IMG/VR virus record: IMGVR_UViG_2799113057_000001
Reading direction: 5' to 3' (one strand)
From: a virus
Taxonomy: Duplodnaviria; Heunggongvirae; Uroviricota; Caudoviricetes
Length of the DNA: 44,564 nt
A program made the translations under genes and the position numbers. Positions within the stretch are counted from its first letter, which is position 1. The number at the start of each line of letters is the position of its first letter. This document shows, one piece after another, positions 5,182 to 44,564 of the stretch. A model generated the notes under the pieces. That model did no database searches and had not been told where the DNA came from. It saw only the letters and a program-made list of their open reading frames with translations.

Positions 5182-5241
5182 GGCCTTGACGGTAGCGACC
5201 TGCACCGACGAATCGCGGGGAGCGTTGGCAACACGCCGGGT

Positions 5242-6380: not shown

Positions 6381-6496
6381 AGGGAAAGTTACACACCACG
6401 ACGAACAGATTCACGCCAGTCGCCGAAAAGGTGCCTATCGGCGTGCCGTGCGTTTCAATCAGGCATCGTTGGAGGCATCGGTTAATCTCTTCGACC

Positions 6497-13926: not shown

Positions 13927-15005
<1,079 letters not shown>

Positions 15006-15009
<4 letters not shown>

Positions 15010-27917: not shown

Positions 27918-28835
27918 CTACTGATCAGCCGCAGTCCAGTACTCAGGCAAGCGGCCGAAATCCGGATTTGTCAACGCCAGTCGGGCGGACAACTTATACG
28001 AGAGGTCGTCGGGCCACGATTCAATTTGGCTTGAGTACCAACTGCGCCAATCGATATCGAGCCCGCCCGCTGCAAGCCCTGCAAGATAGGAAGCCGTCAG
28101 TCTCGTTCTGTCCGCGACGTACATCATCTCGTAGTTGGTGCGGTTGCTGTCGCGCCTAACATCCATTGGCGCAATCTCTTCCGTTATTTCTTCGACGAGT
28201 CTGCCTTCGCGGGCGAATATGGCTACCAGTCGCTCTCCGTCAGTGATCTGATCGAGGAAGTCTCGAATGGAATTGATGTGGTTCTCGCTGGCTATGGTCC
28301 GAGCGGCCACATACCAGCTCTCCAGTGCCAGCCGCCACTGAGCCTGGAACGGTTCCCAAGCGGCAACGGGGAGACTCTGGATATCTGCGACGGCAAGGGC
28401 ATCTACTTCGACGAGTGTCGACGAGCTCCAAGACTCCTCGGTTATGGGGACTAGTTCGTCTCGCCACGCGATAGGGAGCGATCCTTCGCGGGCCCGCTTG
28501 AGGATCCGATCAAGGTACCGAGTCTTCGCCGCGGTGTAGTAATGGCCTCGCAGCCCGCCTCGAAGATCTGTTGGCCTGATGTTGAAAGGGTCTGATCTGG
28601 GCGTCGATGCAGCGTGGATCGAGCCGGGCGCATGGCCAGCAGCGGCCAGCGCCTCAGCTTCGGAACGACCCAGTGCAGCCGCCAGTCGCTTCACGGCTTT
28701 CGCGGAGGGCACCGTTGCCCCTGACTTCCATCTTGAGACTTGGGATGGGGCAACACCTGCCATCTCGGCTAGTTGGTTCTGTGGAGTGTCGCCTGCCACC
28801 TGCTGCAAGTAATTCACCCATGAAGTCACTGTCAC
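27918..28835 (-). CDS. XRE-family HTH regulator fused to an uncharacterised C-terminal domain
   Basis: QNQLAEMAGVAPSQVSRWKSG HTH; C-terminal domain paralogous to 32132-32809; start set at GTG 28835. Confidence 0.8.
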   Translation of the reverse strand: MTVTSWVNYLQQVAGDTPQNQLAEMAGVAPSQVSRWKSGATVPSAKAVKRLAAALGRSEAEALAAAGHAPGSIHAASTPRSDPFNIRPTDLRGGLRGHYYTAAKTRYLDRILKRAREGSLPIAWRDELVPITEESWSSSTLVEVDALAVADIQSLPVAAWEPFQAQWRLALESWYVAARTIASENHINSIRDFLDQITDGERLVAIFAREGRLVEEITEEIAPMDVRRDSNRTNYEMMYVADRTRLTASYLAGLAAGGLDIDWRSWYSSQIESWPDDLSYKLSARLALTNPDFGRLPEYWTAADQ

Positions 28836-28869
28836 AACGTACGCACTTCCAGGCCCAAGTCCAAGCAGA

Positions 28870-28985
28870 TCGATTGCATCAATTGCATAACGCCATTCAT
28901 GGAATGCAATCATGCATCGATAGGAATTGATGTGAGCAGGTCATATGCAAAACTCTGGGGTGTGATCGTTGCATGTTGGTTGCGA
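28870..28985. promoter_or_regulatory. divergent control region with repeated TGCA boxes
   Basis: AT-rich; six TGCA-containing words between divergent XRE and 29004 genes. Confidence 0.5.
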
Positions 28986-32894: not shown

Positions 32895-33005
32895 CTCGAC
32901 CATCCAGAAAATGTCGGCTGCTTGCCGATACGTGTTTCATTCGGGTGTAGACAGGTGGTGTTCAGTGCCGAAAATGCGCGAAGCTGCGGTGTGTTGTTGC
33001 CGGCG

Positions 33006-33407
33006 TCAACGCCGGTCAGCATCGGGCCGAGAGTTGCTACCGCCTCGCTGGGCATTGGGATCATGGGTGGTTTCTTGTAGCGCTCTGGCCCGTCGTACAA
33101 GTCGGGTGGCGGTGACCAACCCGAGTCGGGGATCAGCTGCTCGCATCGCCTTCACCGCGCTGACTTGATCATGATGACCTGCGATCACATCCTGCACCTT
33201 GGCGTCGGTCCATTCAGCGGCCAGCTGTTCTTGTTCGGCGGCCGATCTCTCCGAGTTCCGGTTGTCGTAGACCCACCACAGACCCACCGGCAGCGCCAAG
33301 GCCCCGATCACAACACCGAACCAGTCATGATCAATGATGTTAGCCACGATTAGTATCTGCGCCCCGATGGCGGTGAGCCATGCCCAGTACCTTTCAAATC
33401 GACGCAT
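33006..33407 (-). CDS. two-TM membrane protein
   Basis: Two hydrophobic segments, then a helical C-terminal domain. Confidence 0.7.
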   Translation of the reverse strand: MRRFERYWAWLTAIGAQILIVANIIDHDWFGVVIGALALPVGLWWVYDNRNSERSAAEQEQLAAEWTDAKVQDVIAGHHDQVSAVKAMRAADPRLGLVTATRLVRRARALQETTHDPNAQRGGSNSRPDADRR

Positions 33408-33727
33408 TACTTGACCTTTGTCTCTGAGTGAATTGTTTGTCGTGTTCGTCAGTACGGCACTTGATGGGTCTCTGGGGCAGCAGGCGCAACAGCAATCTTG
33501 TCGGTACGGCGGCGATCCTCGACGGTGAACCCGTTATCGCGATCGTTCAGGATCTTGCGGCCGCAACGAAAGTACGGACGCTGCCCACTGTGCGCCCCAA
33601 CCGCTCAGCAGCCAGCGGCGCCAGCACGGACGTATCCAACGCCAACGTCCGTTCCGCCTCAGGAACCGGTCGACCCATCACCACCGTCCTCCGAGTACGT
33701 TAGCCATGGGCCAAACAGTACGGCGAG

Positions 33728-33792
33728 GGTAGCTGGCGGACAAGAACCCCAAAGCGTGTGATGCCCGCGGAGACGGAGGGACTCGAACCCTC
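33728..33792 (-). repeat. direct repeat copy 2 (overlaps the intact tRNA-Ser 3' end)
   Basis: See 32829-32894. Confidence 0.85.
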
Positions 33793-33853
33793 GGCCGATG
33801 TAGGTCGACTACGCGCTAGCAACGCGCTGCATTCGCCGCTCTGCCACGTCTCC
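33768..33853 (-). tRNA. tRNA-Ser(GCT)
   Basis: Cloverleaf, long variable arm, G73. Confidence 0.9.
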
Positions 33854-33859
33854 AAATTT

Positions 33860-33887
33860 GTTATATCGCAATGCAATCGGATGTCAT
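33860..33887 (-). promoter_or_regulatory. promoter ATGACA-N16-TATAAC for tRNA-Ser
   Basis: -10 ends 6 nt before the tRNA 5' end. Confidence 0.55.
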
Positions 33888-33898
33888 TGTTGCGCCCG

Positions 33899-34534
33899 TC
33901 AGGGCAACAGCTCATGCACTGGCACGCTCAGTGCAGATGCGATGGCATACAACTTCTTGAGGTCCAACGACCGGCGTCCGGATTCAATGTCGGATACGCC
34001 CGACTGCATGACACCCAATACGCCCGCTAGGGCGGCCTGGGGAAGTCCTTTATCGCTGCGCAGAGCGGCGATCTTGCGGCCCACGATTGCGTCGTAGTCC
34101 GGGGGATAGTCCCAGTCCCGCGCTGCTGCTTCTGCAGCGGCGAAAGGGACCAGAGCCTCCGGTAGTGGAGCTAGCACCAAGGCGCGCCGCTCACTATCGC
34201 CGATCGTGGACACCACGCCGGCGACGGTGAAAACCTGCGGATTGTCCAGAACCGCACACAGCGCCTTGACAACGTTCGGTTGGAAAATGGTGACTTGGCT
34301 GTAGAGGCTGGCGGCATGGTTGTGGTCCTCTAGCACCGCTATATCGGCGACGATCGCCGTTGCTCTACCGTCGTGGCTCCATCGCGATGCGTAAACGTGT
34401 CTGGACAAGGGGCGGATCAGCACTGCGGCGTCGACCAAGCCGCGAAGGCTAAACACGTCGCCCGTATGCCAAGGCGCATCAGCCTCGCGGACGATATCGG
34501 TGGGGTGCGCGATGCTCGTATCGGGGTAGGTCAT
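33899..34534 (-). CDS. protein with C-terminal XRE HTH
   Basis: GRKIAALRSDKGLPQAALAGVLGVMQSGVSDIESG; GGAGGAG RBS before ATG 34534. Confidence 0.85.
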   Translation of the reverse strand: MTYPDTSIAHPTDIVREADAPWHTGDVFSLRGLVDAAVLIRPLSRHVYASRWSHDGRATAIVADIAVLEDHNHAASLYSQVTIFQPNVVKALCAVLDNPQVFTVAGVVSTIGDSERRALVLAPLPEALVPFAAAEAAARDWDYPPDYDAIVGRKIAALRSDKGLPQAALAGVLGVMQSGVSDIESGRRSLDLKKLYAIASALSVPVHELLP

Positions 34535-34546
34535 GTCCACTCCTCC

Positions 34547-34567
34547 AGTATCTGTTTGGCAGATACT
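34547..34567. promoter_or_regulatory. palindrome AGTATCTG-N5-CAGATACT, probable XRE operator
   Basis: Perfect 8-bp arms immediately upstream of the XRE RBS. Confidence 0.55.
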
Positions 34568-34612
34568 ATCATCTATCCAAAAGATACGGCCAGGTAGTGT
34601 GCAAAACCAACG

Positions 34613-34686
34613 TCGGGGTAGACGGATTTGAACCGCCGGTCTCCTCGTCCCGAACGAGGCGGATTGCCAAGCTTTCCCATACCCCG
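34613..34686 (-). tRNA. tRNA-Pro(CGG)
   Basis: Cloverleaf; loop TTCGGGA. Confidence 0.9.
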
Positions 34687-34712
34687 AATCAGACACTGCA
34701 CGTGTCCGTTAG

Positions 34713-34786
34713 AGCCCTCAACCGGAATCGAACCGGTGACCTGCTCATTACGAGTGAGCCGCTCTGGCCAACTGAGCTATGGGGGC
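34713..34786 (-). tRNA. tRNA-Thr(CGT)
   Basis: Cloverleaf; loop CTCGTAA. Confidence 0.9.
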
Positions 34787-34808
34787 GCTGCTGGCCGGTG
34801 GACCAGTG

Positions 34809-34882
34809 TGGAGTCTCCGGCCGGACTTGAACCGGCGTAGACGGCTTTGCAGGCCGCTGCTTAACCACTCGGCCACGGAGAC
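34809..34882 (-). tRNA. tRNA-Cys(GCA)
   Basis: Cloverleaf; encoded CCA. Confidence 0.9.
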
Positions 34883-34910
34883 AGGACCCGCGCTAGCGCG
34901 GGTGTAGGGA

Positions 34911-35294
34911 CTAGTCCCACCATCCGCCGCTGTACATCCCGTGGCGGCAGGCGACACGGTTGTCGATCACGCTCTCGTCGACCTCGCCGCCGTACAAAGC
35001 GTCGCGGGTAAGCGAGCGCAGCGTGTTCCGTCGAGCCGCGCGCTCAGCGGAATACCACGAACGCCGAGCGGACTGGCGATATCTACTCTCGGAGAACAGC
35101 TTCCGATTCAACATGGGTTCGTGCGCGGGTTCCCAGCGGCACCCGGTGTCGGTGAACGACCATGGATCGTCAGGGAGATCGCACGGGAACCGCGCGTGAA
35201 GGCGGTGGAGGTCGTCGCACATGTGCACGGCGCGCATCGCCCGTATGTCGTTCATCTGGACCCGCCAAGGGCGAGTCTTGTCGGTCTTGGACAT
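34911..35294 (-). CDS. basic hypothetical protein (MSKTDKTRPW family)
   Basis: 127 aa with Cys/His/Trp pattern; lies between tRNAs. Confidence 0.7.
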   Translation of the reverse strand: MSKTDKTRPWRVQMNDIRAMRAVHMCDDLHRLHARFPCDLPDDPWSFTDTGCRWEPAHEPMLNRKLFSESRYRQSARRSWYSAERAARRNTLRSLTRDALYGGEVDESVIDNRVACRHGMYSGGWWD

Positions 35295-35422
35295 CGAATT
35301 CTTCTGCCTTTCGGCAGGCTGCCCGCAGCTTCCGTACGGCTACGAGGAAAGCAGCCGCATCTAGGTGAAGCGACCCATGGCGTTCTCCTTTGTTCGTTCG
35401 AGTAGGGCTTTCCGCTGCTCGT

Positions 35423-35500
35423 TGGTCGGGCTGGCGCGATTCGAACGCGCGATTTCCTGGCCCCCAGCCAGGCGGATTGACCAAGCTTTCCCACAGCCCG
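35423..35500 (-). tRNA. tRNA-Pro(GGG)
   Basis: Cloverleaf; CCA. Confidence 0.9.
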
Positions 35501-35580
35501 TGGATCTTTCGATGCTGTCCGGCACGCTCTGTTGTTGTGCCGAGACGGTGACGACACGCCGGTGTCGGTGTCGAACTCGG

Positions 35581-35653
35581 TGCCCCCGGCCGGATTCGAA
35601 CCGGCAACCATCGGAGTAGAAAGCCGGTGCGCTATCCGTTGCGCCACGGAGGC
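35581..35653 (-). tRNA. tRNA-Arg(TCT), weak anticodon stem
   Basis: Cloverleaf; two anticodon-stem mismatches. Confidence 0.75.
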
Positions 35654-35763
35654 ATGCTCGTGCAGACGCGGTCGCACTGCGCCCGATCCTCGCCTAGTGC
35701 ACTAACCCTGGTCGACAACGTTTACCTGTCAGGTTCCGTCCAGTGCATCATGCTGACCTCGTC

Positions 35764-36054
35764 TCAGAGCCAGCGTCCCGTCAGGGCATGTGCTCTGTAG
35801 GCGTCGATGAACTCATACGATCCACCGGAGCAATCGAATTTGAGATACCCGGTGTCGTCAGCTGTGTCCACGTAAAAGACGAGAATCCAACCGCCGTCAA
35901 ACTTGACGAGGTGTGATGGCCGGTTGAAGTCACGTCGTCCCGGCAAGAAATCCTCGAGATAGCTACGTAGCGTCGCGTTGACGGTGAACGAGGCGATTAT
36001 CGCTTCGAGACTCCGATCATCACCGTGGATGGTCGGGTAGATGGTGGTTGGCAT
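35764..36054 (-). CDS. hypothetical protein
   Basis: 96-aa ORF between tRNAs. Confidence 0.6.
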   Translation of the reverse strand: MPTTIYPTIHGDDRSLEAIIASFTVNATLRSYLEDFLPGRRDFNRPSHLVKFDGGWILVFYVDTADDTGYLKFDCSGGSYEFIDAYRAHALTGRWL

Positions 36055-36135
36055 GTCCTAAGGATCGGTCGCAACATCGTGGTTGGTTGTGTCCGGCGCG
36101 ATTGTGGGCTTAGCCGCCAAGTGCGCACCGAACAG

Positions 36136-36211
36136 TGGGGCGACGTGTCGGGATCGAACCGACGACTACCGGTTCCACAAACCGGGGCTCTGCCGCTGAG
36201 CTAACGCCGCC
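36136..36211 (-). tRNA. tRNA-His(GTG)
   Basis: G-1:C73; CCA. Confidence 0.9.
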
Positions 36212-36346
36212 ATGGCGAGCCGGGGGACAGGCCCAGCCCGGGCCGCTGTCTACGCGCCGTCTGTCCCCGGACACGCAGGCGGAGCCACCCGCACCCGGCA
36301 TCTCAGCCGAGCGGTTCCCGTGCGGTTGTGAGCCGGTTGGGTTGCG

Positions 36347-36434
36347 CGGAAGGTAGAGGTGTCGAGCCCCCGAGGACTCCCGTCCCCGCATGCCGGTTTT
36401 CAAGACCGGGTGCGCCGCCGGGCGCGTACCTTCC
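36347..36434 (-). tRNA. tRNA-Ser(TGA), 8-bp acceptor / 4-bp T-stem
   Basis: GGAAGGTA/TACCTTCC, GGGG-CTCGACA-CCTC, long V arm, G73. Confidence 0.8.
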
Positions 36435-36465
36435 AAATGTTCTGGCCCACAACGGGCAGAACTCG

Positions 36466-36538
36466 TTGCTCCGGCGGGACTTGAACCCGCGACTTTCGCA
36501 TTATGAGTGCGGAGCTCTACCAACTGAGCTACGGAGCG
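36466..36538 (-). tRNA. tRNA(CAT), Met or Ile2
   Basis: Loop CTCATAA; identity not resolvable by eye. Confidence 0.85.
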
Positions 36539-36740
36539 TTGATCCGCCCAGTGCGATGAGCGGAGGTCTCGTTCGAGTACTACAGATCGCGCTTCTTTCC
36601 GTGTTTCCGGTGACCACACCGGGGATTTGCCCGGGTTCCGGGCATCCCGTCTCCCCGGTTTCTAAGCTCGGGAAGACATCGAATCTGTGAAACCGCGCCA
36701 GAGCGGCAGCTATGCGAGTTTGGTCAGTAGCCTCCCGCGC

Positions 36741-37130
36741 GTGCCATACGCAGACAAAGAGGCTCAGCGCAGATACCAACTCGAATGGATTGCGAGGAAC
36801 CGGAGCGAGTGGATCGCCGCGCACGGCCCGTGCGCCATCTGTGGATCACCGGAGTCACTCGAGGTCGATCACATCGATCGTGGAACTAAGATCAGCCATC
36901 GCATCTGGAGTTGGTCAGAGGCGCGAAGGCTCGCCGAACTGGCGAAATGTCAAGTGTTGTGCCGCAATTGCCACTCAAGTAAGACTGCCATTGAGAATTC
37001 CGGCGCGGGGTATACCCACGGAACACACTCCGCGTATGCGTCAACAAAGAACCGCAACGGTTGTCGTTGCGATCGGTGTAAAGCAGCCCATGCTGAATAT
37101 CAGCGGCGGTATCGATCCCGTGCGGCTTAG
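36741..37130 (+). CDS. HNH endonuclease, antisense to the tRNA array
   Basis: CAIC...LEVDHID...CQVLCRNCH; C-terminal HGT..Y...CRCDRC; start GTG 36741 (track 36687). Confidence 0.85.
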   Translation: MPYADKEAQRRYQLEWIARNRSEWIAAHGPCAICGSPESLEVDHIDRGTKISHRIWSWSEARRLAELAKCQVLCRNCHSSKTAIENSGAGYTHGTHSAYASTKNRNGCRCDRCKAAHAEYQRRYRSRAA

Positions 37131-37136
37131 GTGTCG

Positions 37137-37211
37137 TTGCGGAGGCAGGATTCGAACCTGCGACTTCGTGGTTATGAGCCACGCGGGCTGACCAAGCTGC
37201 CCTACTCCGCT
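37137..37211 (-). tRNA. tRNA-fMet-like (CAT)
   Basis: Unpaired 1:72, initiator-like D arm; TGG/CCA in place of GGG/CCC in the anticodon stem. Confidence 0.8.
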
Positions 37212-37271
37212 CCTGCGCCTGACACCTCTGAATCGCAGCGGCGCACACCGCGGAGGTGGAGTGTCTACCGA

Positions 37272-37475
37272 TCAGATCGGGATGCTGTTTCGGGCGGCGG
37301 ACTGGGCATCGACGTCAGGAGAGCACGTCATCGCACCGCTGGGGTGTTCGGCCACTATGTAGCCGCTGGGGCAGCAGGCTGTTTGGTCTGGGAGGCAGCG
37401 CGGCCCCGCGCTGGCGGATGGAGCGAAGATCAACAAGGGTGCCGCCGCGATCACAGCGGTGACGCAGAGTTTCAT
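37272..37475 (-). CDS. small secreted Cys-containing protein
   Basis: Signal peptide ending ASA; GGAGGG RBS. Confidence 0.65.
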   Translation of the reverse strand: MKLCVTAVIAAAPLLIFAPSASAGPRCLPDQTACCPSGYIVAEHPSGAMTCSPDVDAQSAARNSIPI

Positions 37476-37599
37476 ATGCCCTCCAAGGTTCGGCGATTGG
37501 TGCGGTTCGAGCACTGGCATATAGCCTCCGCTGCAAGAACTCTCGAATCCACTGCGACCGCGCGACACGCCGACACCGCTAGCTGTCAGCTGGAGCCGT

Positions 37600-37845
37600 T
37601 CATCCGAACGCTCGGCGGGCATCGGCCTCATTGTCGAATAACCGGCAGCCCCACAAGGTCCAGGAACCGTTCTCGTGGTGTACGAGGTTTCCGTACATCG
37701 AATTTCGGTTCTTGGTCGCATTCCACAGTTCCACAGCAGAGTCGAATGACTCCCCGGCCCAGGTACCCAGTGAACGCGCGCGTCCATGCTCTCCGGTGGC
37801 GGCGTATCCCTCGCACCACAGGGTGTACAGCGTCATCGTCGGCAT
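37600..37845 (-). CDS. phage-type conserved small protein
   Basis: LWCEGYAATG...WGCRLFDNEADARRAFG. Confidence 0.7.
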   Translation of the reverse strand: MPTMTLYTLWCEGYAATGEHGRARSLGTWAGESFDSAVELWNATKNRNSMYGNLVHHENGSWTLWGCRLFDNEADARRAFG

Positions 37846-37847
37846 GG

Positions 37848-38444
37848 TTAATCCTCGCCTTTGCGATCGACATCAATGCCCAGCAGCGTGCGCAGAGCCT
37901 CAGCGTTACCCCGTGCGTCGTCGAGTGGATGGTGGGTGTGTCGTGTGCGGCGCAGACTCTTCCATGAGGAGTGATCAGCCCACTTCTGCCGAGTGCCTGC
38001 GTAGAAGTCACCGATGCGCCGCGACGAGTGGCCGAAAAAGACCTCACCCGTCCAGCGGTCAGTGAAGCAGTTCAGCCACATCGCGTCGTAGCCGTTGTTG
38101 TCGCTGACCAGTACCCGGCGTGGTAAACCGAATCCGTCGACCCATGCGCGCAGTGCGCTAGCGACATCGGCCGGTTCCGAACCTGCCACTGCGTTGGCGA
38201 CGTCTTTGCCGTCGACGATCCAGTACGCCTCGCTGATGTAGTCACCCTCGCCGTCGAGATCTGCAACAGGGATCGCGGAGTTGTCCGGATGCGGATGGTT
38301 GCGGTAGATGTGCCCGTAGAACGAAGCGCCCGAAACCAGCTGGACCACGGCGAACTCAGTCATCACACCACTGAACGGTGTGCGCGAGGTGGCCTCCACA
38401 TCGACAATGAACGCAGCTGCGTGTCTCTCGTCCCGCGTTGCCAT
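37848..38444 (-). CDS. DEDDh 3'-5' exoribonuclease (Rv2179c/RNase AS-like)
   Basis: IVDVEATS, SDNNGYD, HTHHPLDDARGNA; start ATG 38444. Confidence 0.8.
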   Translation of the reverse strand: MATRDERHAAAFIVDVEATSRTPFSGVMTEFAVVQLVSGASFYGHIYRNHPHPDNSAIPVADLDGEGDYISEAYWIVDGKDVANAVAGSEPADVASALRAWVDGFGLPRRVLVSDNNGYDAMWLNCFTDRWTGEVFFGHSSRRIGDFYAGTRQKWADHSSWKSLRRTRHTHHPLDDARGNAEALRTLLGIDVDRKGED

Positions 38445-38470
38445 GTTCACTCCGATCGGTTGCCGAACTG

Positions 38471-38546
38471 TGGTGCCCCCAGACGGATTCGAACCGCCGG
38501 CCGTCACGTTAGGACCGTGCCGCTCTGTCCACTGAGCTACAGGGGC
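38471..38546 (-). tRNA. tRNA-Arg(CCT)
   Basis: Cloverleaf; CCA. Confidence 0.9.
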
Positions 38547-38718
38547 ATATGCGCGAGATCCCGTGCAGGTCACCTCTCGTCCGAGACTATGCGGCGTCGT
38601 GGAGATGCCTTCGCCAGGTAGAACGGGGGGCTGGCGTTGACACGGGATCTCGCGTGTTCAGCTTCTACGTCGCCTGGCGTGGGCTCCAGTGGGGTGCCAC
38701 GACACGCCGAGGATTGAG

Positions 38719-38791
38719 CAGCGTCGACGGGAATCGAACCCGCGCGTCCCGAGATGAAAGCCCGGGTGCCTAGCCATCACAGCACGACGCC
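38719..38791 (-). tRNA. tRNA-Glu(TTC)
   Basis: Loop CTTTCAT. Confidence 0.85.
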
Positions 38792-38857
38792 ATGGACGAG
38801 ACCGCGACCGTCGTCGCGACCTCTGATACCGGCCACCGTTCGATGGTCGGGTACTTG

Positions 38858-38930
38858 CACGCCCGGCAGGACTCGAACCTACGTCTTCCGGTTTTGGAGA
38901 CCGGCGTCTTAGCCGCTAGACCACGGACGC
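38858..38930 (-). tRNA. tRNA-Trp(CCA)
   Basis: Loop CTCCAAA. Confidence 0.9.
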
Positions 38931-38961
38931 ATAGGGGATAGATCGATAGATCCCCATAAAG

Positions 38962-39043
38962 CGGAAGACGGAGCTCTGATCCCCATCGCTGAAGCGACCA
39001 ACGGTGTTCGAAGCCGTGCGCGCGCCGGGCGCGTTCATCTTCC
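38962..39043 (-). tRNA. atypical tRNA-Ser(CGA), 8-bp acceptor, aberrant T arm
   Basis: GGAAGATG/CGTCTTCC; loop TTCGAAC; T loop ATCAGAG. Confidence 0.65.
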
Positions 39044-39066
39044 AAGATTCGGCCGGCGGTGCGGCC

Positions 39067-39145
39067 TGGTGCCCCCAGCAGGATTTGAACCTGCGACCCT
39101 CCGATTAAAAGTCGGTGGCTCTGGACCAGACTGAGCTATGGAGGC
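39067..39145 (-). tRNA. tRNA-Lys(TTT)
   Basis: Cloverleaf; CCA. Confidence 0.9.
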
Positions 39146-39149
39146 GAAG

Positions 39150-39222
39150 TACCCACGCCGAGAGTTGAACTCGGGGCCTCCTGCTTCGGAGGCAGGCGCT
39201 CTATCCACTGAGCTACGCGGGC
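39150..39222 (-). tRNA. tRNA-Arg(CCG)
   Basis: Cloverleaf. Confidence 0.9.
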
Positions 39223-39236
39223 TGAAATCTTGTTTG

Positions 39237-39310
39237 TCGGGATGACACGATTTGAACGTGCGACCCTCTGCTCCCAAAGCAGATGCGCTACCAAGCTGCG
39301 CCACATCCCG
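39237..39310 (-). tRNA. tRNA-Pro(TGG)
   Basis: Cloverleaf. Confidence 0.9.
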
Positions 39311-39341
39311 TTTCGCGTCGTTGAGGCCGACGCGGGCCCGG

Positions 39342-39422
39342 TGCCGGCAGAAGGAATTGAACCCACTCACCCGAAAGAACGGCTTTACAGGCCGCTGCGC
39401 CTCGCCTCTGCGCCGTGCCGGC
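39342..39422 (-). tRNA. tRNA-Tyr(GTA)
   Basis: Loop CTGTAAA, long V arm; imperfect T stem. Confidence 0.8.
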
Positions 39423-39423
39423 A

Positions 39424-39500
39424 TGGTAGTCCCGGAGGGATTCGAACCCCCGACAACCCTGGGTGTAAACCAGGTGCTCTTCCAACTGAGCTACGAGACT
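39424..39500 (-). tRNA. tRNA-Val(TAC)
   Basis: Cloverleaf; CCA. Confidence 0.9.
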
Positions 39501-39525
39501 GAGACGGTGCCCAATGCGCCGCTTG

Positions 39526-39599
39526 CGCCAGTGACGGGACTTGAACCCGCGGCCTCCACCTTGACAGGGTGGCGAGCTAACCAGCTGCTCTACACCGGC
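39526..39599 (-). tRNA. tRNA-Asp(GTC)
   Basis: Cloverleaf. Confidence 0.9.
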
Positions 39600-39619
39600 A
39601 TTCGCGGCGGATTGCCGCG

Positions 39620-39696
39620 TGGTCGACCTGGATGGATTTGAACCAACTGCCTCCGCCTTATCAGGGCGGCGCTCTAACCAGATGAGCTACAGGTCG
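39620..39696 (-). tRNA. tRNA-Ile(GAT)
   Basis: Cloverleaf; CCA. Confidence 0.9.
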
Positions 39697-39726
39697 TTTT
39701 GAGATCTTCGGTCTTCTGGACCGTTG

Positions 39727-39799
39727 TACCGCGAGAGGGATTTGAACCCCCGGCCCCCTGCTTCGTAGGCAGGTGCTCTCTCCACTGAGCTACCGCGGC
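39727..39799 (-). tRNA. tRNA-Arg(ACG)
   Basis: Cloverleaf. Confidence 0.9.
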
Positions 39800-39800
39800 T

Positions 39801-39888
39801 TGGTGTCGATGACAGGAGTCGAACCTGCACACCCTGTAATGGGCGCCAGCTCCTCAAGCTGGTGCGTCTGCCGTTCCGCCACACCGAC
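39801..39888 (-). tRNA. tRNA-Leu(GAG)
   Basis: Long V arm; CCA. Confidence 0.9.
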
Positions 39889-39894
39889 ATTGCG

Positions 39895-39967
39895 TGGTCC
39901 CGGCCGGAATCGAACCGACCTCTCTTGGGCTTCAACCGAGCGCTTGAACCAGTTCAGCTTCGGGACC
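39895..39967 (-). tRNA. tRNA-Phe(GAA)
   Basis: Loop TTGAAGC; one stem mismatch. Confidence 0.8.
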
Positions 39968-39975
39968 ATCCCGGG

Positions 39976-40046
39976 TGAAAGGGGCGGGAGTTGAACCCGC
40001 GTGCGACTGGCGTCCCAGCTGGCAGACCGTCAATGCCAACCCTCTC
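39976..40046 (-). ncRNA. tRNA-like RNA with a 4-nt loop in place of the anticodon loop
   Basis: Acceptor GAGAGGG/CCCTTTC, D stem GGCA/TGCC, arm GCTGG-GACG-CCAGT, T arm GCGGG-TTCAACT-CCCGC. Confidence 0.75.
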
Positions 40047-40098
40047 GAAGCGCCTATCGGCCACCGCGTTGGCGGTGCTTACGAATGGGCGCTCAACG

Positions 40099-40173
40099 TA
40101 GTCCGTACCGGATTCGAACCGGTGATCTTCTGGCTGAGAACCAGGTGTCTTGGGCCAACTAGACGAACGGACC
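40099..40173 (-). tRNA. tRNA-Glu(CTC)
   Basis: Cloverleaf. Confidence 0.9.
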
Positions 40174-40217
40174 AGGAAACTCGTCTCTCCGAGCCGTCAC
40201 GGGTCTGTTCCCCGTCG

Positions 40218-40685
40218 TCAGATGTGCGCTGGTCGGAACGGTTCACGGATCAGCTTCATCCCCGCTTCCTCCGGCGTGCGGTCTGCCTTGCGGCCGTTGC
40301 ACGGCTCGCACGCGCCTACCTGGTTCGTCCACGATGACGGCGCACCGCCGCGCGAACGCGGGAACACGTGATCGATCGTGGTGGCCTTGGCGCCGCAGCC
40401 GAAGTACTGGCACAGGTAGTTGTCTCGGCGCAGAATCTCTGCACGCGAGGCCAACTCCGGATCGCGGCGGTATGGGACAGGGGCGTACCGAGTCAGCAAC
40501 AGCGACTTGGGCACCTCCACCTCGGCGCTCGGCGAGCGGACTATGCGTGGGGGCACGTGGGCCTCCAGCGCGTATGCCACATCACGCAGAAGCATGCCGA
40601 CCGCGTCTTGCCAGCGTACGGTGTCGAGAAATGAATAGTCGGCGTTGAACACCCGCACGGAAGGCGCGGGCACGGTCATCGTCAT
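40218..40685 (-). CDS. HNH endonuclease (McrA/COG1403-like)
   Basis: ILRRDNYLCQY...TIDHVFPRSRGG...WTNQVGACEPCNGRK; AAGGAGG RBS. Confidence 0.9.
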   Translation of the reverse strand: MTMTVPAPSVRVFNADYSFLDTVRWQDAVGMLLRDVAYALEAHVPPRIVRSPSAEVEVPKSLLLTRYAPVPYRRDPELASRAEILRRDNYLCQYFGCGAKATTIDHVFPRSRGGAPSSWTNQVGACEPCNGRKADRTPEEAGMKLIREPFRPAHI

Positions 40686-40756
40686 GGCGCCGCGCCTCCT
40701 TTCCGTGTTCTGGGCGGGCCGGGATGGCGCGAATGCGCCCTATTGCAACGGGGTAG

Positions 40757-40829
40757 TGGAAGCTGCGGGGCTCGAACCCGCCACCTCCTGCTTGCAAGGC
40801 AGGCGCTCTACCAGATGAGCTAAGCCCCC
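40757..40829 (-). tRNA. tRNA-Ala(TGC)
   Basis: G3:U70. Confidence 0.9.
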
Positions 40830-40992
40830 AAAGAGAGGTGTCTGTCGAACACGCTGTGGACTCGACTCTTTCCGATGTGCCGGGGGGATACCCGAGGACT
40901 ACGGCGCCTCCACGCCGCCGCACCAAGCCGGGCACGGTCACTGCTCCTATTCAGCGGTCACCACCGCAGGTACGCGTCCCTACTCGGTAGCG

Positions 40993-41065
40993 CTGACCTG
41001 GAAGGAATCGAACCTTCAACCACGCGATTAACAGTCGCGCGCTCTGCCAATTGAGCTACAGATCA
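40993..41065 (-). tRNA. tRNA-Asn(GTT)
   Basis: U1:A72, G73. Confidence 0.9.
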
Positions 41066-41067
41066 AT

Positions 41068-41362
41068 GTATTTGGGACTGAGATTAGGTCCCAAAGCAAC
41101 GGTCCTCTCGTCGGATTATGGTTTCTCGACTTATCCACCAGGTTTCCCTAGGTAGCCGTCACGCCGGGCTGCTTGCGGCAGCCACTCGTCATGCCACGGT
41201 CTACTCCGCGAAGTCTCGATACAGACAAGGGCAGCTAACCCCTGAACCGCTCTGACACCTCACGGACTTCCGATCACCTTGCGAGTTCACGGTTGCCTCG
41301 GTTCCCTTTGCAGGGCCGAGGATTACGGCGCTTTCGAGCCGTGGCAGGGAAAGTCTTTCGCT
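41068..41362 (-). ncRNA. large GNRA-rich structured RNA candidate (segment A)
   Basis: At least five GNRA-capped hairpins and a terminal TTTGGGAC/GTCCCAAA stem; no credible ORF. Confidence 0.65.
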
Positions 41363-41439
41363 TGGAATAAACACGCCGGACTTGAACCGGCGACCTACCG
41401 TTCCAGAAACGATTGCTCTGCCAATTGAGCTAGTGCTTG
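41363..41439 (-). tRNA. atypical tRNA-Gln(CTG)
   Basis: Loop TTCTGGA; C1-A72 mismatch; Asn-like D arm. Confidence 0.7.
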
Positions 41440-41440
41440 T

Positions 41441-41850
41441 TGACTGAGGATGTGCTTTCCCGCGAAGTTCCGTGACCTTTTGAGCCACAGAATGCTTCAC
41501 ACCCTCGCGCTTGGCCGCCAAGCCGCTGCGCTCTCGTCCGTGCACCGATGCGCCCACCGGATTCCGAAGTCATGGGAACCGCCCTCGCCTGGCGAGCTCG
41601 GACTGGTGTTCCCTCGCACCCCGCTGGCGATCCTCGTTCACGTGACGGTGTCGGCGCTGCGTAGCGCCGACGCGAAGGTGAGCACTCGCCGTCCCTTCTG
41701 CCGTCGAACTCGAACCGCTGTGGCACCCGGTTGCCCAGGTACTCCTTGCGGAAGCCGTGCATGGTGTGCCGCATCGCCGTAGAGATGTGGTGGCGGGGTG
41801 TCACACCCACCTTTCGCGGAGTCGCCTCCGGTTGTCGAGCCATGCCTCGT
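41441..41850 (-). ncRNA. large structured RNA candidate (segment B)
   Basis: UUCC-GCAA-GGAG, CCUGG-GCAA-CCGGG, 9-bp GUCGGCGCU/AGCGCCGAC, GCUUGG/CCAAGC hairpins. Confidence 0.55.
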
Positions 41851-41852
41851 TG

Positions 41853-41926
41853 TACCCCTCCCCGGATTCGAACCGGGAACCTTCGGCACCTGAAGCCGAC
41901 GCCTCTGCCAGTTGGGCCAGAGGGGC
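41853..41926 (-). tRNA. tRNA-Leu(CAG) with short variable loop
   Basis: Loop TTCAGGT; 5-nt V region; A73. Confidence 0.85.
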
Positions 41927-41930
41927 ATGT

Positions 41931-42001
41931 TGGTTGTGGGCCGGATTCGAACCGGGACCGCTCGGGGTCCGCCCGCCGCTCTGCCACTGAGCTACCACTA
42001 C
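41931..42001 (-). ncRNA. tRNA-like RNA with defective anticodon arm
   Basis: Canonical D arm and TTCGAAT T loop, ends ACCA; arm CGGG-CGGAC-CCCG, no U33. Confidence 0.65.
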
Positions 42002-42161
42002 GACGACCTAACACGCCGGGCTGTTCTGGTCCAAGGCGGCCTGCCCGTGCTCCTGTTCAGCGGTCAAGATTCGAGGCGGCAAGTCCTGTTTACCGATCCG
42101 GGTGATCGGCGCCGATCTGACGGCAACCCCATCCGCGTCCCACTACGGATGCTCACGAACC

Positions 42162-42237
42162 TGGAGCGGATGACGGGGATCGAACCCGCGACCTGCACCT
42201 TGGCAAGGTGCCGCGCTACCAACTGCGCTACATCCAC
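42162..42237 (-). tRNA. tRNA-Gly(GCC)
   Basis: U73, CCA. Confidence 0.9.
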
Positions 42238-42380
42238 ATTGGAAACCCATGCCTTGCGGCGAGGTGCACCTTCGCTTGCCCAGCACGGCGCGGCCGTCGA
42301 ACGACCCCTGCATGGGCGGAGGGGTGCCGGGACTGACGGTTCCGCATTCCGCTCGCGCAGCGGGTGGTCACCGACAACCG

Positions 42381-42455
42381 TGGAGCCACCATCGGGGGTT
42401 GAACCCGAGGCCTCGTTCTTACCAAGAACGCGCTCTGCCACTGAGCTATGGCGGC
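42381..42455 (-). tRNA. tRNA-Thr(GGT)
   Basis: Cloverleaf; CCA. Confidence 0.9.
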
Positions 42456-42475
42456 ATAACCCGAAAGTGGGGGAG

Positions 42476-42550
42476 AGCCCCAAGCCGGATTCGAACCGGC
42501 GACCCTCTGCTTACAAGGCAGATGCTCTGGCCGGACTGAGCTATCAGGGC
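42476..42550 (-). tRNA. tRNA-Thr(TGT)
   Basis: Cloverleaf. Confidence 0.9.
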
Positions 42551-42663
42551 GTTGTGGTGGTGATCCTGGAACGGGGCCATAGCGTCGAACATGCTCCTGG
42601 AGCGCCACCTGCGAAGACCACTGCCACGCGGGCGATTAACTCCGCACAGTGGGATTCGCGATG

Positions 42664-42735
42664 CTGCCCAGGGAGGATTCGAACCTCCACCGACCTGATC
42701 CAGAATCAGGAGTCCTGCCGTTAGACCACCGGGCA
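42664..42735 (-). tRNA. tRNA-Gln(CTG)
   Basis: U1:A72, G73. Confidence 0.9.
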
Positions 42736-42761
42736 ATGTGCGTTTCGGGTCCGCCGACCTG

Positions 42762-42833
42762 CTGCCTCGCCAGGGCTCGAACCTGAACTCCCGGAGCCAA
42801 AATCCAGTGGGCTGCCGATTACCCCACAAGGCA
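42762..42833 (-). tRNA. tRNA-Gln(TTG)
   Basis: U1:A72, G73. Confidence 0.9.
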
Positions 42834-42851
42834 TTGTTCATTCGGACGCGG

Positions 42852-42936
42852 TAGCCCTGGAGGGAATCGAACCCACACGTCCTGTCGGACACCGGAGTTT
42901 GAATCCGGCGCGGCTGCCATGTTTCGCCACAGGGCC
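42852..42936 (-). tRNA. tRNA-Leu(CAA)
   Basis: Long V arm. Confidence 0.9.
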
Positions 42937-43016
42937 AAGATGTTTGGAGAAGGTCGGCAGTGATCCGGTACCTGGCACCGACCAGCTGGCATCACCAGTT
43001 CCGCACCGCGGGCCGA

Positions 43017-43083
43017 AGCCAACGCAGGGAATCGAACCCCGTGGCGAAGGGACCGTCCTCTGTCCCTACCCACCGTCGTGGGC
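43017..43083 (-). ncRNA. tRNA-like RNA lacking a D stem, with an 8-nt anticodon-position loop
   Basis: Acceptor GCCCACG/CGTTGGC, T arm CGGGG-TTCGATT-CCCTG, stem AGGGAC/GTCCCT. Confidence 0.55.
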
Positions 43084-43089
43084 ACCAAG

Positions 43090-43161
43090 AGCGAGCGACG
43101 GGAATCGAACCCGCATCATCAGATTGGAAGTCTGAGGTCGTAGCCATTGGACCACGCTCGC
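43090..43161 (-). tRNA. tRNA-Gly(TCC)
   Basis: U73. Confidence 0.9.
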
Positions 43162-43164
43162 AGC

Positions 43165-43645
43165 GTCCCGGATTGTTGCGCCCGACGGGACCACTCGGTG
43201 TTCGGATTTCTAGCCTGCCGCCAGAACGAGGCGGCTCCTGCTCCGTCAAGGGCTGCATTATCGCCCCCGTGTCTGTCCACGGCGCCACATCGGTGTGCCG
43301 GTGTCCCTCTCTGATTCGACCCACCCGAAGGTGTCTTACCCTGCACCGTGCCGCTCACCGTTGGGTGCCCCTACTGGGTGAACGGGTTGTCGTTTCGCGG
43401 TGAGATGCCGCGCCGCCCCGCCTTGCGAAGGAGGAGTGGGATCGGAGCAATCGAGCTGTGGACGGTTGGCGGTATATCTCACGCCGATCGGTGCCGTCCC
43501 CACACCCCAACCGGGCTCTGACACCGGAAGACCTGCGAGAGGGGAGGAGCCGATTGATGGTCGGTTGCGGCACTCTGGCCGCCTACCCAGTGCCCGGCAC
43601 CACCCGCTGGTACGTGTGCGGTCTACTTCACCGCACGGCGCACTA
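43165..43645 (-). ncRNA. ~480-nt structured RNA candidate (segment C)
   Basis: CACC-UUCG-GGUG, GUGCGGU/ACCGCAC, GCCGCC/GGCGGC, GUCCCG/CGGGAC hairpins; no credible ORF. Confidence 0.5.
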
Positions 43646-43647
43646 CG

Positions 43648-43721
43648 TACGCCCCCGGGGTCTCGAACCCCGTACCCCCTGATTAAGAGTCAGGTGCTCT
43701 GGCCAGATGAGCTAGAGGCGC
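43648..43721 (-). tRNA. tRNA-Lys(CTT)
   Basis: Cloverleaf; first tRNA of the array in transcription order. Confidence 0.9.
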
Positions 43722-43950
43722 ATATCCGTTTGGTTGCAATGGATTTACACCAAATCAACCAAACGGAACTCATGCCTACTCCCTGACGGAAAGCTGGCAT
43801 GAGGGCCGGGCGCATGGCGGCGCCCGGCGTACCGCCCCGACAGGAGGATTGAGGATGAGCATGCTCGACTGGCTGACCGGTCATTGACTCTCTTGGGAGC
43901 CCCGGGCGCCGAGACGGCTTGTTCATCGACCCTCGTGAGGGGCGGTGCAT

Positions 43951-43976
43951 CACACACTCTGGAGTTTTCAAAGTCC
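43951..43976 (-). promoter_or_regulatory. rrn-leader boxA/CL2-like element CTTTGAAAACTCCAGAGTGTGT
   Basis: Resembles the mycobacterial rrn leader TTTGAGAACTCAATAGTGTGT (recalled consensus); about 230 nt upstream of the first tRNA. Confidence 0.6.
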
Positions 43977-44564
43977 TGGCAGGAGAACGCCTTAGCGTCC
44001 CGCGTGCGGCAGCGAATCGAGCGATCTTCTCGTTCGTGCTGAGCATGATGGTGCTACGGAATACGAGTCTTGTAAAGCGCAATTTACCTAAATCGGCTGT
44101 GTGGCAAGGTAATTCAAAGCGTGCTGAACTAAGGGAGTGTCAGCGGACATCCCTAGCAGCGGAAACGCAAATATTGAGATTTTTATGAGATTTGTTCCCT
44201 GGCCCTTGCTTCCGATCGGGGCGCTCGCCCATGGGGAGGGCGGATAGGTCATATCGGGGTGACCGGAAGCATCTGGGCTGGCCGAAATCGTGGCTCGTGG
44301 CCGTGGAGAGCTCTTGGGTCTTGATGACCGATTCCAGCCACGACAAAGCCGCCGGTGATGCTGTCTGCATCCCGGCAACTCGCTGGTCGAGGCGTATCAA
44401 AGTCACGAGCTGACGGTATCACTGGTCAGCGACATTGCCCAGCTAAATTCGGCGAGGTGAGGTGCTGCGTTTGGCCGCGGAGTGTGGTTTCAGCTGATCA
44501 GGCGGTGTAGCGTCTGGCCAACGCTAAAGATGTTGGCGCAATCGATTTGTTCTCGGTTATAGAG

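What the first reader, a model, noticed from the sequence alone, without database searches (positions are those of the whole stretch)
41068..41362. ~295-nt RNA segment dense in GNRA-capped hairpins
Seen on the minus strand: GGCUC-GAAA-GCGCC, CCCU-GCAA-AGGG within CCUCGG/CCGAGG, CUC-GCAA-GGUG, GCUGCC-GCAA-GCAGC, CUAGG-GAAA-CCUGG and terminal UUUGGGAC/GUCCCAAA. This density marks large tertiary-folded RNAs. GOLLD RNA has been reported in Mycobacterium tRNA arrays near HNH genes, and GOLLD/ROOL occur beside tRNAs; family identity cannot be fixed by eye.
Basis: partly seen in the sequence, partly recalled or inferred. Interest (0 to 1): 0.7.

Follow-up and report, generated by a model that had tools for sequence, protein, structure and literature searches.

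The report
GOLLD RNA inside mycobacterial tRNA array
The hairpin-rich stretch is the conserved back half of a GOLLD RNA, a giant cage-forming non-coding RNA already known from mycobacterial and phage tRNA gene clusters, so it is a real but ordinary new example.

Summary
Rfam's GOLLD model (RF02032) matches window 41075-41507 (-) over its full length at 188.4 bits (cut-off 150, E 1e-51). ROOL does not match.

The flagged 295 nt are only the post-linker core. The whole RNA is about 780 nt (about 41071-41851, minus strand):
- a 344-nt 5' domain;
- a first hairpin;
- a linker carrying a tRNA-Gln(CUG)-like insert (41363-41440);
- the core.

It fills the gap between tRNA-Leu and tRNA-Asn in a 36-tRNA array with an HNH gene.

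On an unfitted alignment of 33 relatives, 86.5% of Rfam-derived pair cells are standard pairs, against 36-46% when partners are slid. 68 of 92 pairs change on both sides. A covarying 7-bp pseudoknot spans the tRNA linker and ties the two halves into one RNA.

Closest relatives are Mycobacterium sp. D16Q14 (95% identical in the 3' domain), plasmid pCBMA213_1 (80%) and phage Rey.

GOLLD in Mycobacterium tRNA arrays, with HNH genes and an embedded pseudo-tRNA, is already published. This scan has noted it before in at least 24 other genomes. Function is unknown; cage assembly and processing by tRNA enzymes are inferred.

The parts
41852..41926 (-). tRNA-Leu(CAG), directly upstream of the GOLLD 5' end
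   Evidence: ARAGORN and Rfam tRNA at 53 bits. The same tRNA-Leu / GOLLD order is found in pCBMA213_1, L113 and L157.
41508..41851 (-). GOLLD 5' domain (344 nt), not covered by the Rfam model
   Evidence: It is homologous in 26 relatives (alignment A2). In the tested helices 94% of cells are paired, against 35-47% when partners are slid, and 26 of 34 pairs change on both sides.
41836..41849 (-). First hairpin of the 5' domain. Its loop GCAUGG (41845-41840) pairs with CCAUGC at 41764-41759, forming a pseudoknot.
   Evidence: The stem is 100% paired and all 3 pairs covary. The loop-strand helix is 96% paired, with 4 of 6 pairs changed on both sides.
41445..41507 (-). First hairpin of the conserved 3' domain (Rfam model positions 1-63)
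   Evidence: cmscan alignment. Helices 1 and 2 are 90-91% paired across 33 relatives.
41455..41461 (-). GGGAAAG, 5' strand of a 7-bp pseudoknot that spans the linker
   Evidence: It pairs with CUUUCCC at 41353-41347. 98.7% of cells are paired, and six sequence variants are each perfectly complementary.
41363..41440 (-). tRNA-Gln(CUG)-like insert in the variable linker (J13/15)
   Evidence: ARAGORN and Rfam tRNA at 53.3 bits. It has a C1.A72 mismatch and lacks the U1-A72 and G73 of the two stand-alone tRNA-Gln genes. 16 of 33 relatives carry a tRNA-like insert here, with varied anticodons.
41347..41353 (-). CUUUCCC, 3' strand of the linker-spanning pseudoknot
41071..41362 (-).
   Evidence: Rfam model positions about 140-416. 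Helices 3-15. z = -4.05.
41226..41244 (-). Hairpin CAGGGG-UUAGCUG-CCCUUG with the self-complementary apex AGCU (41236-41233)
   Evidence: The apex is a self-complementary NGCN' in 25 of 33 relatives, in four variants: AGCU, GGCC, UGCA and CGCG. This fits the self-kissing loops that join half-shells in the solved GOLLD cages (PMC12286853, PMC12990946). A neighbouring small hairpin of the Rfam model is deleted here.
41071..41095 (-). Terminal hairpin with loop CUAAUCUCA (the last hairpin of the Rfam model)
   Evidence: UCU is invariant in 33 relatives. Helix 15 is 93% paired.
40992..41065 (-). tRNA-Asn(GUU), 5 nt downstream of the GOLLD 3' end
40218..40685 (-). HNH endonuclease ORF (155 aa) inside the array
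   Evidence: Pfam HNH_5 and HNH; PHROG 16726, E 1e-25. An HNH gene sits in the same position in pCBMA213_1.
33767..43721 (-). Co-oriented array of 36 tRNA genes that holds the GOLLD gene
   Evidence: ARAGORN; Rfam

Best explanation
The segment is the conserved core of a full-length GOLLD RNA (Rfam RF02032) of about 780 nt, encoded on the minus strand at about 41071-41851.

Shown here:
- The RNA has a 344-nt 5' domain, then a hairpin, then a variable linker holding a tRNA-Gln(CUG)-like module, then the core.
- A covarying pseudoknot bridges the linker, so both sides of the tRNA belong to one fold.
- The gene fills the space between tRNA-Leu and tRNA-Asn in a horizontally mobile mycobacterial-type tRNA array that also holds an HNH gene.

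Inferred:
- The RNA is transcribed with the array, since no promoter-like site was found from the GOLLD gene to the window's end.
- Its ends are cut by the enzymes that trim the flanking tRNAs: RNase P at tRNA-Asn, and 3' trimming at tRNA-Leu.
- As in the solved GOLLD structures, it assembles by kissing loops and A-minor contacts into a hollow homo-oligomeric cage. The linker and its tethered tRNA-like module point inward.
- Copy number per cage cannot be predicted, because this clade lacks one small hairpin of the consensus.

The biological role is unknown for the whole family. The most likely reading is a phage- or mobile-element-borne helper of translation, tied to the accompanying tRNA set.
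For: Family identity:
- Full-length match to RF02032, 188.4 bits against a cut-off of 150, E 1.2e-51.
- The same model hits the syntenic gene on plasmid pCBMA213_1 (196.7 bits) and in phage Rey (182.5 bits), and two Mycobacterium genomes (215-221 bits).

Structure of the 3' domain:
- On an unfitted MAFFT alignment of 33 distinct relatives, the Rfam-derived structure gives 86.5% paired cells, against 36-46% when partners are slid.
- The covariation score is 0.560 against 0.08-0.18. 68 of 92 pairs change on both sides, and 0 of 500 shuffles reach these values.
- De novo RNAalifold recovers the same helices.

One RNA, not two:
- The 5' domain is conserved and covarying.
- The linker-spanning pseudoknot covaries.

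Fit with cage assembly and context:
- A self-complementary loop apex is conserved.
- Flanking tRNAs lie within 0-5 nt, with the same synteny in three relatives.
- No promoter-like site lies in 40900-44564.

Literature:
- GOLLD with an HNH gene and an embedded pseudo-tRNA in Mycobacterium tRNA clusters, with a weak Northern signal in M. aubagnense (PMC6582537; PMC9569102).
- A 14-mer cage with the linker inside (PMC12286853).
- Other stoichiometries, and tRNA in J13/15 of Mycolicibacterium GOLLD (PMC12990946).
Against:
- The score is somewhat lower than in relatives. One helix carries two A.A mismatches (41295/41294 with 41268/41267), and one consensus hairpin is absent.
- Cage assembly, processing by tRNA enzymes and any role in translation are inferred by homology, not shown here.
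- The simple promoter scan covers only sigma-70-type consensus sites.
Confidence: 0.92

Rival explanations
1. Split GOLLD. The embedded tRNA-Gln-like module is excised by RNase P and 3' trimming. The mature RNA is then two pieces, the 5' domain plus first hairpin and the core, held together by the 7-bp pseudoknot. A free tRNA is released. This is a variant of the best explanation, not a different identity.
For: - The insert is a well-formed cloverleaf: ARAGORN calls it, and Rfam tRNA scores 53.3 bits.
- The pseudoknot lies across the linker and could hold two pieces together.
- Half of the relatives keep a tRNA-like insert at this site.
Against: - The acceptor stem is weak: a C1.A72 mismatch and mostly A-U and G-U pairs. 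The U1-A72 and G73 of the array's own tRNA-Gln genes are missing.
- The anticodon CUG is already supplied by 42663-42735.
- In pCBMA213_1 the anticodon loop is aberrant while the T arm is kept by compensatory changes. This suggests selection for shape rather than decoding.
- No transcript of the embedded pseudo-tRNA was detected in M. aubagnense (PMC6582537).
Confidence: 0.2
2. A decaying GOLLD relic that still resembles the family but no longer folds or functions.
For: - Two A.A mismatches lie in one helix and one consensus hairpin is missing.
- The bit score is lower than in other mycobacterial copies.
Against: - The whole model is covered and 84 of 92 mapped pairs are standard, more after register correction.
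- The pseudoknots and the self-complementary loop are intact.
- The missing hairpin is absent across the whole clade, not only here.
- The nearest relatives, at 90-95% identity, keep the same features.
Confidence: 0.06
3. Not an RNA gene: a protein-coding stretch, or a GC-rich spacer whose hairpins arise by chance.
For: ORFs of 96-194 aa overlap the region on both strands.
Against: - These ORFs run through tRNA genes and have no Pfam match.
- Substitutions among relatives are pairwise compensatory.
- Rfam E-value is 1e-51 and the fold z-score is -4.05.
Confidence: 0.01
4. A member of another large-RNA family, ROOL or similar, rather than GOLLD.
For: ROOL also lies beside tRNA islands in phages (PMC12286853).
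Against: In 33000-44564, even at E <= 0.1, the only matches are GOLLD, tRNA-clan models and weak plastid-UTR matches lying antisense on tRNA genes.
Confidence: 0.01

Closest known systems
GOLLD gene of plasmid pCBMA213_1 (Mycolicibacterium sp. CBMA 213, NZ_MF600313.1) and of Mycobacterium sp. D16Q14 (MAEX01000011.1)
   Same: - Same order: tRNA-Leu, GOLLD with a tRNA-like insert in the linker, tRNA-Asn, tRNA-Ala, HNH, tRNA-Glu.
- The 3' domain is 80% (pCBMA213_1) and 95% (D16Q14) identical.
- Same 5' domain type.
   Different: - The insert in pCBMA213_1 has an aberrant anticodon loop and ARAGORN does not call it; here it is a complete cloverleaf with anticodon CUG.
- The rest of the window does not match that plasmid.
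GOLLD of cluster M mycobacteriophage Rey (NC_041971.1)
   Same: - Full-length RF02032 match at 182.5 bits.
- Lies in a phage tRNA array with a tRNA-like insert at the same linker site.
- Homologous 5' domain.
   Different: - Only about 58% identical in the 3' domain.
- The insert reads as Ser(GGA).
- The flanking tRNAs differ: Asn upstream and Ala downstream.
GOLLD env-38 (cryo-EM 14-mer cage, PMC12286853) and Streptococcus agalactiae GOLLD (10- to 12-mer forms, PMC12990946)
   Same: - Same family model, and the same split into a 5' cap domain and a 3' ring domain.
- A disordered linker after the first 3'-domain hairpin.
- Conserved A-rich and UCUCA-type loops, and a self-complementary apical loop.
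   Different: - This clade lacks one of the two small hairpins in the middle of the 3' domain. Such differences change the copy number per cage in the solved examples, so stoichiometry here is unknown.
- No structure or assembly data exist for any mycobacterial GOLLD that I could read.
GOLLD in the M. aubagnense / M. abscessus M24 / M. conceptionense '32-tRNA clusters' (PMC6582537; Morgado et al. 2020, RNA Biol 17:1001, not held in the library)
   Same: GOLLD plus an HNH gene inside a large, horizontally acquired tRNA cluster, with a pseudo-tRNA predicted inside the GOLLD gene.
   Different: These sequences were not compared directly here. Expression (a weak Northern signal, twofold higher in stationary phase) is known for M. 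aubagnense only.
ROOL RNA (Rfam)
   Same: A large ornate phage-borne RNA beside tRNA islands that forms a cage (PMC12286853).
   Different: Unrelated sequence and secondary structure; no model match here.

Membership tests
GOLLD RNA (Rfam RF02032) | Covariance-model score at or above the curated gathering score (150 bits) | tested here: met
   188.4 bits, E 1.2e-51; repeated.
GOLLD RNA (Rfam RF02032) | The whole conserved 3' domain is present, not a fragment | tested here: met
   Model positions 1-416 of 416 are aligned, not truncated. One small internal hairpin is deleted.
GOLLD RNA (Rfam RF02032) | Consensus helices kept by compensatory changes among relatives | tested here: met
   86.5% paired against 36-46% when slid; 68 of 92 pairs change on both sides; 0 of 500 shuffles reach this. 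RNAalifold finds compensatory changes in 76 of 99 pairs.
GOLLD RNA (Rfam RF02032) | Variable linker after the first 3'-domain hairpin, sometimes holding a tRNA | tested here: met
   Linker 41444-41363 with the tRNA-Gln-like insert. 16 of 33 relatives have an insert. Described in PMC12286853 and PMC12990946.
GOLLD RNA (Rfam RF02032) | Giant size (about 800 nt) with a less conserved structured 5' domain | tested here: met
   A 344-nt 5' domain, homologous and covarying in 26 relatives. Total about 780 nt between two tRNAs.
GOLLD RNA (Rfam RF02032) | Phage or mobile-element context beside tRNA genes | tested here: met
   36-tRNA array and HNH gene. RIIA/RIIB-like and exonuclease genes are in the window. 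Relatives lie on a plasmid, in phages and on viral contigs.
GOLLD RNA (Rfam RF02032) | Homo-oligomeric cage assembly | not testable with these tools
   Indirect only: the self-complementary apical loop is conserved with covariation.
GOLLD RNA (Rfam RF02032) | Expressed as a discrete RNA | not testable with these tools
A Northern signal is reported for a relative only (PMC6582537).
ROOL RNA | Match to the Rfam ROOL covariance model | tested here: not met
   No match at the gathering score in the window, nor at E <= 0.1 in 33000-44564.
Mycobacterium tRNA array units (Morgado & Vicente 2018, PMC5966550) | 20 or more co-oriented tRNA genes at high density, with an HNH endonuclease gene and often an XRE regulator | tested here: met
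   36 tRNAs in about 10 kb; HNH; an XRE-type HTH protein at 27918-28913. Syntenic with the pCBMA213_1 array.

The most novel reading that the evidence does not exclude
The tRNA-like module is not a relic but cargo. It is held uncut inside the GOLLD cage by the linker-spanning pseudoknot ('inhibited storage', as speculated in PMC12990946). It is released or exposed only when the cage opens, giving the mobile element a protected tRNA or a tRNA decoy during infection or attack by host anticodon nucleases. Under this reading the variety of anticodons among relatives would reflect different host defences.
Probability: 0.1. Interest if true: 0.7.

Novelty: new member of a known kind. Interest (0 to 1): 0.2.

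Why it matters
It adds one more, slightly divergent, GOLLD gene to the published set from mycobacterial tRNA arrays and changes no concept.

Its modest value is as material:
- This clade offers an alignment with clear covariation for the 5' domain, which Rfam does not model.
- It also shows covariation for a pseudoknot that encloses the tRNA linker and for a self-complementary loop.
- These are ready-made mutational targets for testing cage assembly and the fate of the embedded tRNA in a tractable host such as M. smegmatis, using phage Rey or a plasmid copy.

The function of GOLLD remains an open question, and this locus does not by itself make it more testable than the published ones.

Tried and rejected
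- The genome search on the window's own genome: no genome is held.
- Sampling 151 genomes of the family of Mycobacterium sp. IS-836 with RF02032 gave only 2 matches, one of them the centre itself. That was too few for an alignment and only shows rarity in those searched.
- blastn of the core against phages and plasmids found only Rey and pCBMA213_1. Relatives had to be collected by conserved-motif patterns instead.
Only the mycobacterial ones were used, and I did not verify the others as GOLLD.
- I did not build my own covariance model: the domain exceeds the 400-column limit and the practical calibration time. I used unfitted MAFFT alignments, which are also less biased.
- Morgado et al. 2020 (PMC7549688) is not held, so its claims are cited only through papers that cite it. 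PMC12803027 does not mention GOLLD.
- A column-pair scan suggested a second tertiary pairing, UUU of CUUUCCC with AAA of the GAAA loop at 41146-41143. I set it aside because it overlaps the much better supported pseudoknot and may be an indirect correlation.
- I tried to find the published L20-J13/15 kissing loop by eye and could not place it with confidence.
- The raw Rfam-to-window mapping has two register slips, at the UAC...GUG hairpin and the AACCG/CGGAA helix. I corrected these by comparison with relatives, not by refitting.

Full report
**What is there.** On the minus strand the window holds a co-oriented array of 36 tRNA genes (33767-43721). Between tRNA-Leu(CAG) (41852-41926) and tRNA-Asn(GUU) (40992-41065) lie 786 nt that contain one more tRNA call, tRNA-Gln(CUG) at 41363-41440.

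A scan of the whole window against Rfam 15 gives, apart from tRNAs, one match: GOLLD (RF02032) at 41075-41507 (-). It aligns model positions 1-416 of 416 at 188.4 bits against a gathering score of 150, with E 1.2e-51. A more permissive scan of 33000-44564 at E <= 0.1 finds no ROOL and no second GOLLD.

**Checking the observation.** The segment alone folds at -120.7 kcal/mol, better than all 200 dinucleotide shuffles (z = -4.05).

I mapped the Rfam consensus structure onto the window: 84 of 92 pairs are standard. Five of the six elements are family helices. The sixth, GGCUC-GAAA-GCGCC, is not. Its 5' arm is part of a long-range helix to 41200-41191, and GAAAG is a conserved junction (helix 3). 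Two register slips in the model alignment were resolved by comparison with relatives:
- The UAC..GUG hairpin has 7 pairs, a bulged C and a GAAA loop.
- The AACCG/CGGAA helix carries two A.A mismatches in this copy.

**Relatives.** The closest annotated DNA is the tRNA array of plasmid pCBMA213_1 of Mycolicibacterium sp. CBMA 213, at about 80% identity. It has the same gene order, including the HNH gene. Rfam finds GOLLD there at 196.7 bits and in cluster M mycobacteriophage Rey at 182.5 bits, each with a tRNA-like insert at the same place.

Motif scans brought in further copies:
- from Mycobacterium sp. D16Q14, Mycobacterium sp. IS-836 and M. alsense;
- from 20 viral contigs and 14 metagenome contigs.

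After removing duplicates, and adding one copy from the genome sampling below (G145, 144.5 bits, just under the cut-off), 33 distinct 3' domains were aligned with MAFFT, without any structural fitting. Identity to the window is 95% (D16Q14), 90% (a 140-kb soil-type metagenome contig), 80% (pCBMA213_1), and 46-60% for all others.

GOLLD is rare in the sampled family. RF02032 matched 2 of 151 genomes, one of which was the centre genome itself.

**Covariation.** On the unfitted alignment:

| Measure | Rfam-derived structure | 3' partners slid by 1-3 columns |
|---|---|---|
| Cells that are standard pairs | 86.5% | 36-46% |
| Covariation score | 0.560 | 0.08-0.18 |
| Pairs changed on both sides | 68 of 92 | 33-37 of 92 |

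None of 500 shuffles reaches the observed values. RNAalifold, run de novo on the same alignment, recovers the same architecture, with compensatory changes in 76 of 99 pairs. The structure hypothesis came from an outside model, not from these sequences, so the slid control is a fair one here.

**The RNA is larger than the flagged segment.** Three results show this.

1. The 344 nt upstream of the Rfam match (41508-41851) are homologous in 26 relatives and contain covarying helices.
   - A first hairpin (41849-41836) has all three tested stem pairs covarying.
   - Its loop GCAUGG pairs with CCAUGC at 41764-41759. Matched variants include GCAUAG/CUAUGC, GCAUGA/UCAUGC, GCUUGG/CCAAGC and GCGUGC/GCACGC.
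   - Over the tested helices, 94% of cells are paired against 35-47% when slid.
   - This fits the published picture of a less conserved 5' domain that Rfam does not model (PMC12286853).
2. A 7-bp pseudoknot, GGGAAAG (41461-41455) with CUUUCCC (41353-41347), joins the internal loop of the first 3'-domain hairpin to the strand just after the linker.
   - Six sequence variants are each perfectly complementary, and 98.7% of cells are paired.
   - It ties the sequence on both sides of the tRNA into one fold.
3. The structured RNA starts within about 3 nt of the end of tRNA-Leu and ends 5 nt before tRNA-Asn. The same holds in D16Q14, the metagenome contig and pCBMA213_1.

**The embedded tRNA.** It is a regular cloverleaf with anticodon CUG.
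- Its acceptor stem starts with a C.A mismatch and is mostly A-U and G-U.
- It lacks the U1-A72 pair and G73 found in both stand-alone tRNA-Gln genes of the same array, and it is not a recent copy of either.
- Among relatives, 16 of 33 have a tRNA-like insert at this site. The anticodons read as Gln, Ser, His, Met, Arg or UCA, or the loops are abnormal. The rest have short or degenerate linkers.
- In pCBMA213_1 the anticodon loop is aberrant while the T stem is kept by compensatory changes.
- Published work reports a pseudo-tRNA inside the M. aubagnense GOLLD gene with no detectable transcript of its own (PMC6582537), and a tRNA in J13/15 of a Mycolicibacterium GOLLD (PMC12990946, citing Morgado 2020).

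**How it most likely works.** Identity and architecture are shown above. The rest is inference from the family.
- No sigma-70-type promoter-like site lies between the GOLLD gene and the end of the window, and the terminator-like sites are no more frequent than in shuffles. Co-transcription with the array, and end formation by the enzymes that trim the flanking tRNAs, is therefore the simplest model.
- Solved GOLLD RNAs form hollow homo-oligomers. Known forms are a 14-mer for env-38, and 10- to 12-mer forms for S. agalactiae. The 5' domains form caps, the 3' domains form rings, the linker points inward, and the half-shells are joined by self-kissing loops (PMC12286853, PMC12990946).
- In line with this, the apical loop of the hairpin at 41244-41226 carries AGCU. 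The equivalent position is a self-complementary NGCN' in 25 of 33 relatives, in four variants. Two further rows become palindromic if shifted by one base. Chance would give about a quarter.
- This clade lacks one of the two small hairpins in that region. Differences of this kind change the stoichiometry in the solved examples, so the copy number cannot be predicted.
- The biological role of GOLLD is unknown. Reported leads are higher expression during phage lysis, ribosome binding in pull-downs, and tRNA association (PMC12286853).

**Context.** The window has about 62% G+C throughout and matches no known phage or plasmid outside the array. It carries phage-like genes: an RIIA/RIIB-like pair, an exonuclease, an NlpC/P60 protein and HTH regulators. 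It is probably a large mycobacterial plasmid, phage or island. No whole genome is held.

**Comparison and novelty.** Every defining feature of GOLLD that could be tested is met. Cage assembly and expression could not be tested. All of the following are already published: GOLLD within Mycobacterium tRNA arrays, the HNH neighbour, horizontal transfer via phages and plasmids, and an embedded pseudo-tRNA (PMC5966550, PMC6582537, PMC9569102; Morgado 2020 through citations). This scan has also reported GOLLD in tRNA arrays in at least 24 other genomes. This is therefore a new member of a known kind and of low interest. The covarying 5' domain, the linker-spanning pseudoknot and the self-complementary loop are useful handles for experiments, but they are most likely already part of the published consensus and structures.

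Noticed in passing
window 11825-13888 (+) and 13927-15009 (+): An adjacent pair of ORFs matches phage RIIA (phrog_612, E 1e-48; Pfam HATPase_c_3) and RIIB (phrog_609, E 2e-38) lysis-inhibitor families. This is unusual outside large phages and hints that the element is a phage or phage-plasmid.
   Followed up: partly
window 6239-8623 (+): A 794-aa protein made of many repeated helix-turn-helix (HTH_17 / excisionase-like) units (phrog_66).
   Followed up: no
window 3955-5205 (-) and 20584-21540 (+): A phage-type exonuclease (phrog_466, E 9e-60) and an NlpC/P60 peptidoglycan hydrolase domain protein.
   Followed up: no
window 39973-40046 (-): A tRNA-sized element not called by ARAGORN. It gives a sub-threshold match to the tmRNA model (30 bits against 47).
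   Followed up: no
window 36346-36434 (-): ARAGORN calls tRNA-Ser(UGA), but the best Rfam match is the tRNA-Sec model just under its cut-off (43.5 against 47 bits). This suggests an unusual 8/4-type arm geometry.
   Followed up: no
window 41932-42001 (-) and 38719-38791 (-): Weak tRNA matches at 35 and 33 bits. The first is not called by ARAGORN and lies just upstream of tRNA-Leu, next to the GOLLD gene.
   Followed up: no
window 43165-43645 (-): A spacer of about 480 nt in the array that another first-stage note proposed as a second GOLLD-like RNA. It matches no Rfam family at E <= 0.1.
   Followed up: partly
L078 (Mycobacterium alsense NZ_MVHD01000081.1) 1445-1867: This GOLLD copy scores highest of all (221 bits). 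However, its upstream region aligns with the clade's 5' domain only over the last roughly 100 nt, so it has a different or truncated 5' domain.
   Followed up: partly
L125 (G145:C1) 1814-1886: The tRNA-like insert in the linker of this GOLLD copy has anticodon UCA, which ARAGORN calls 'SeC'. It would be a potential UGA-reading or decoy tRNA.
   Followed up: no
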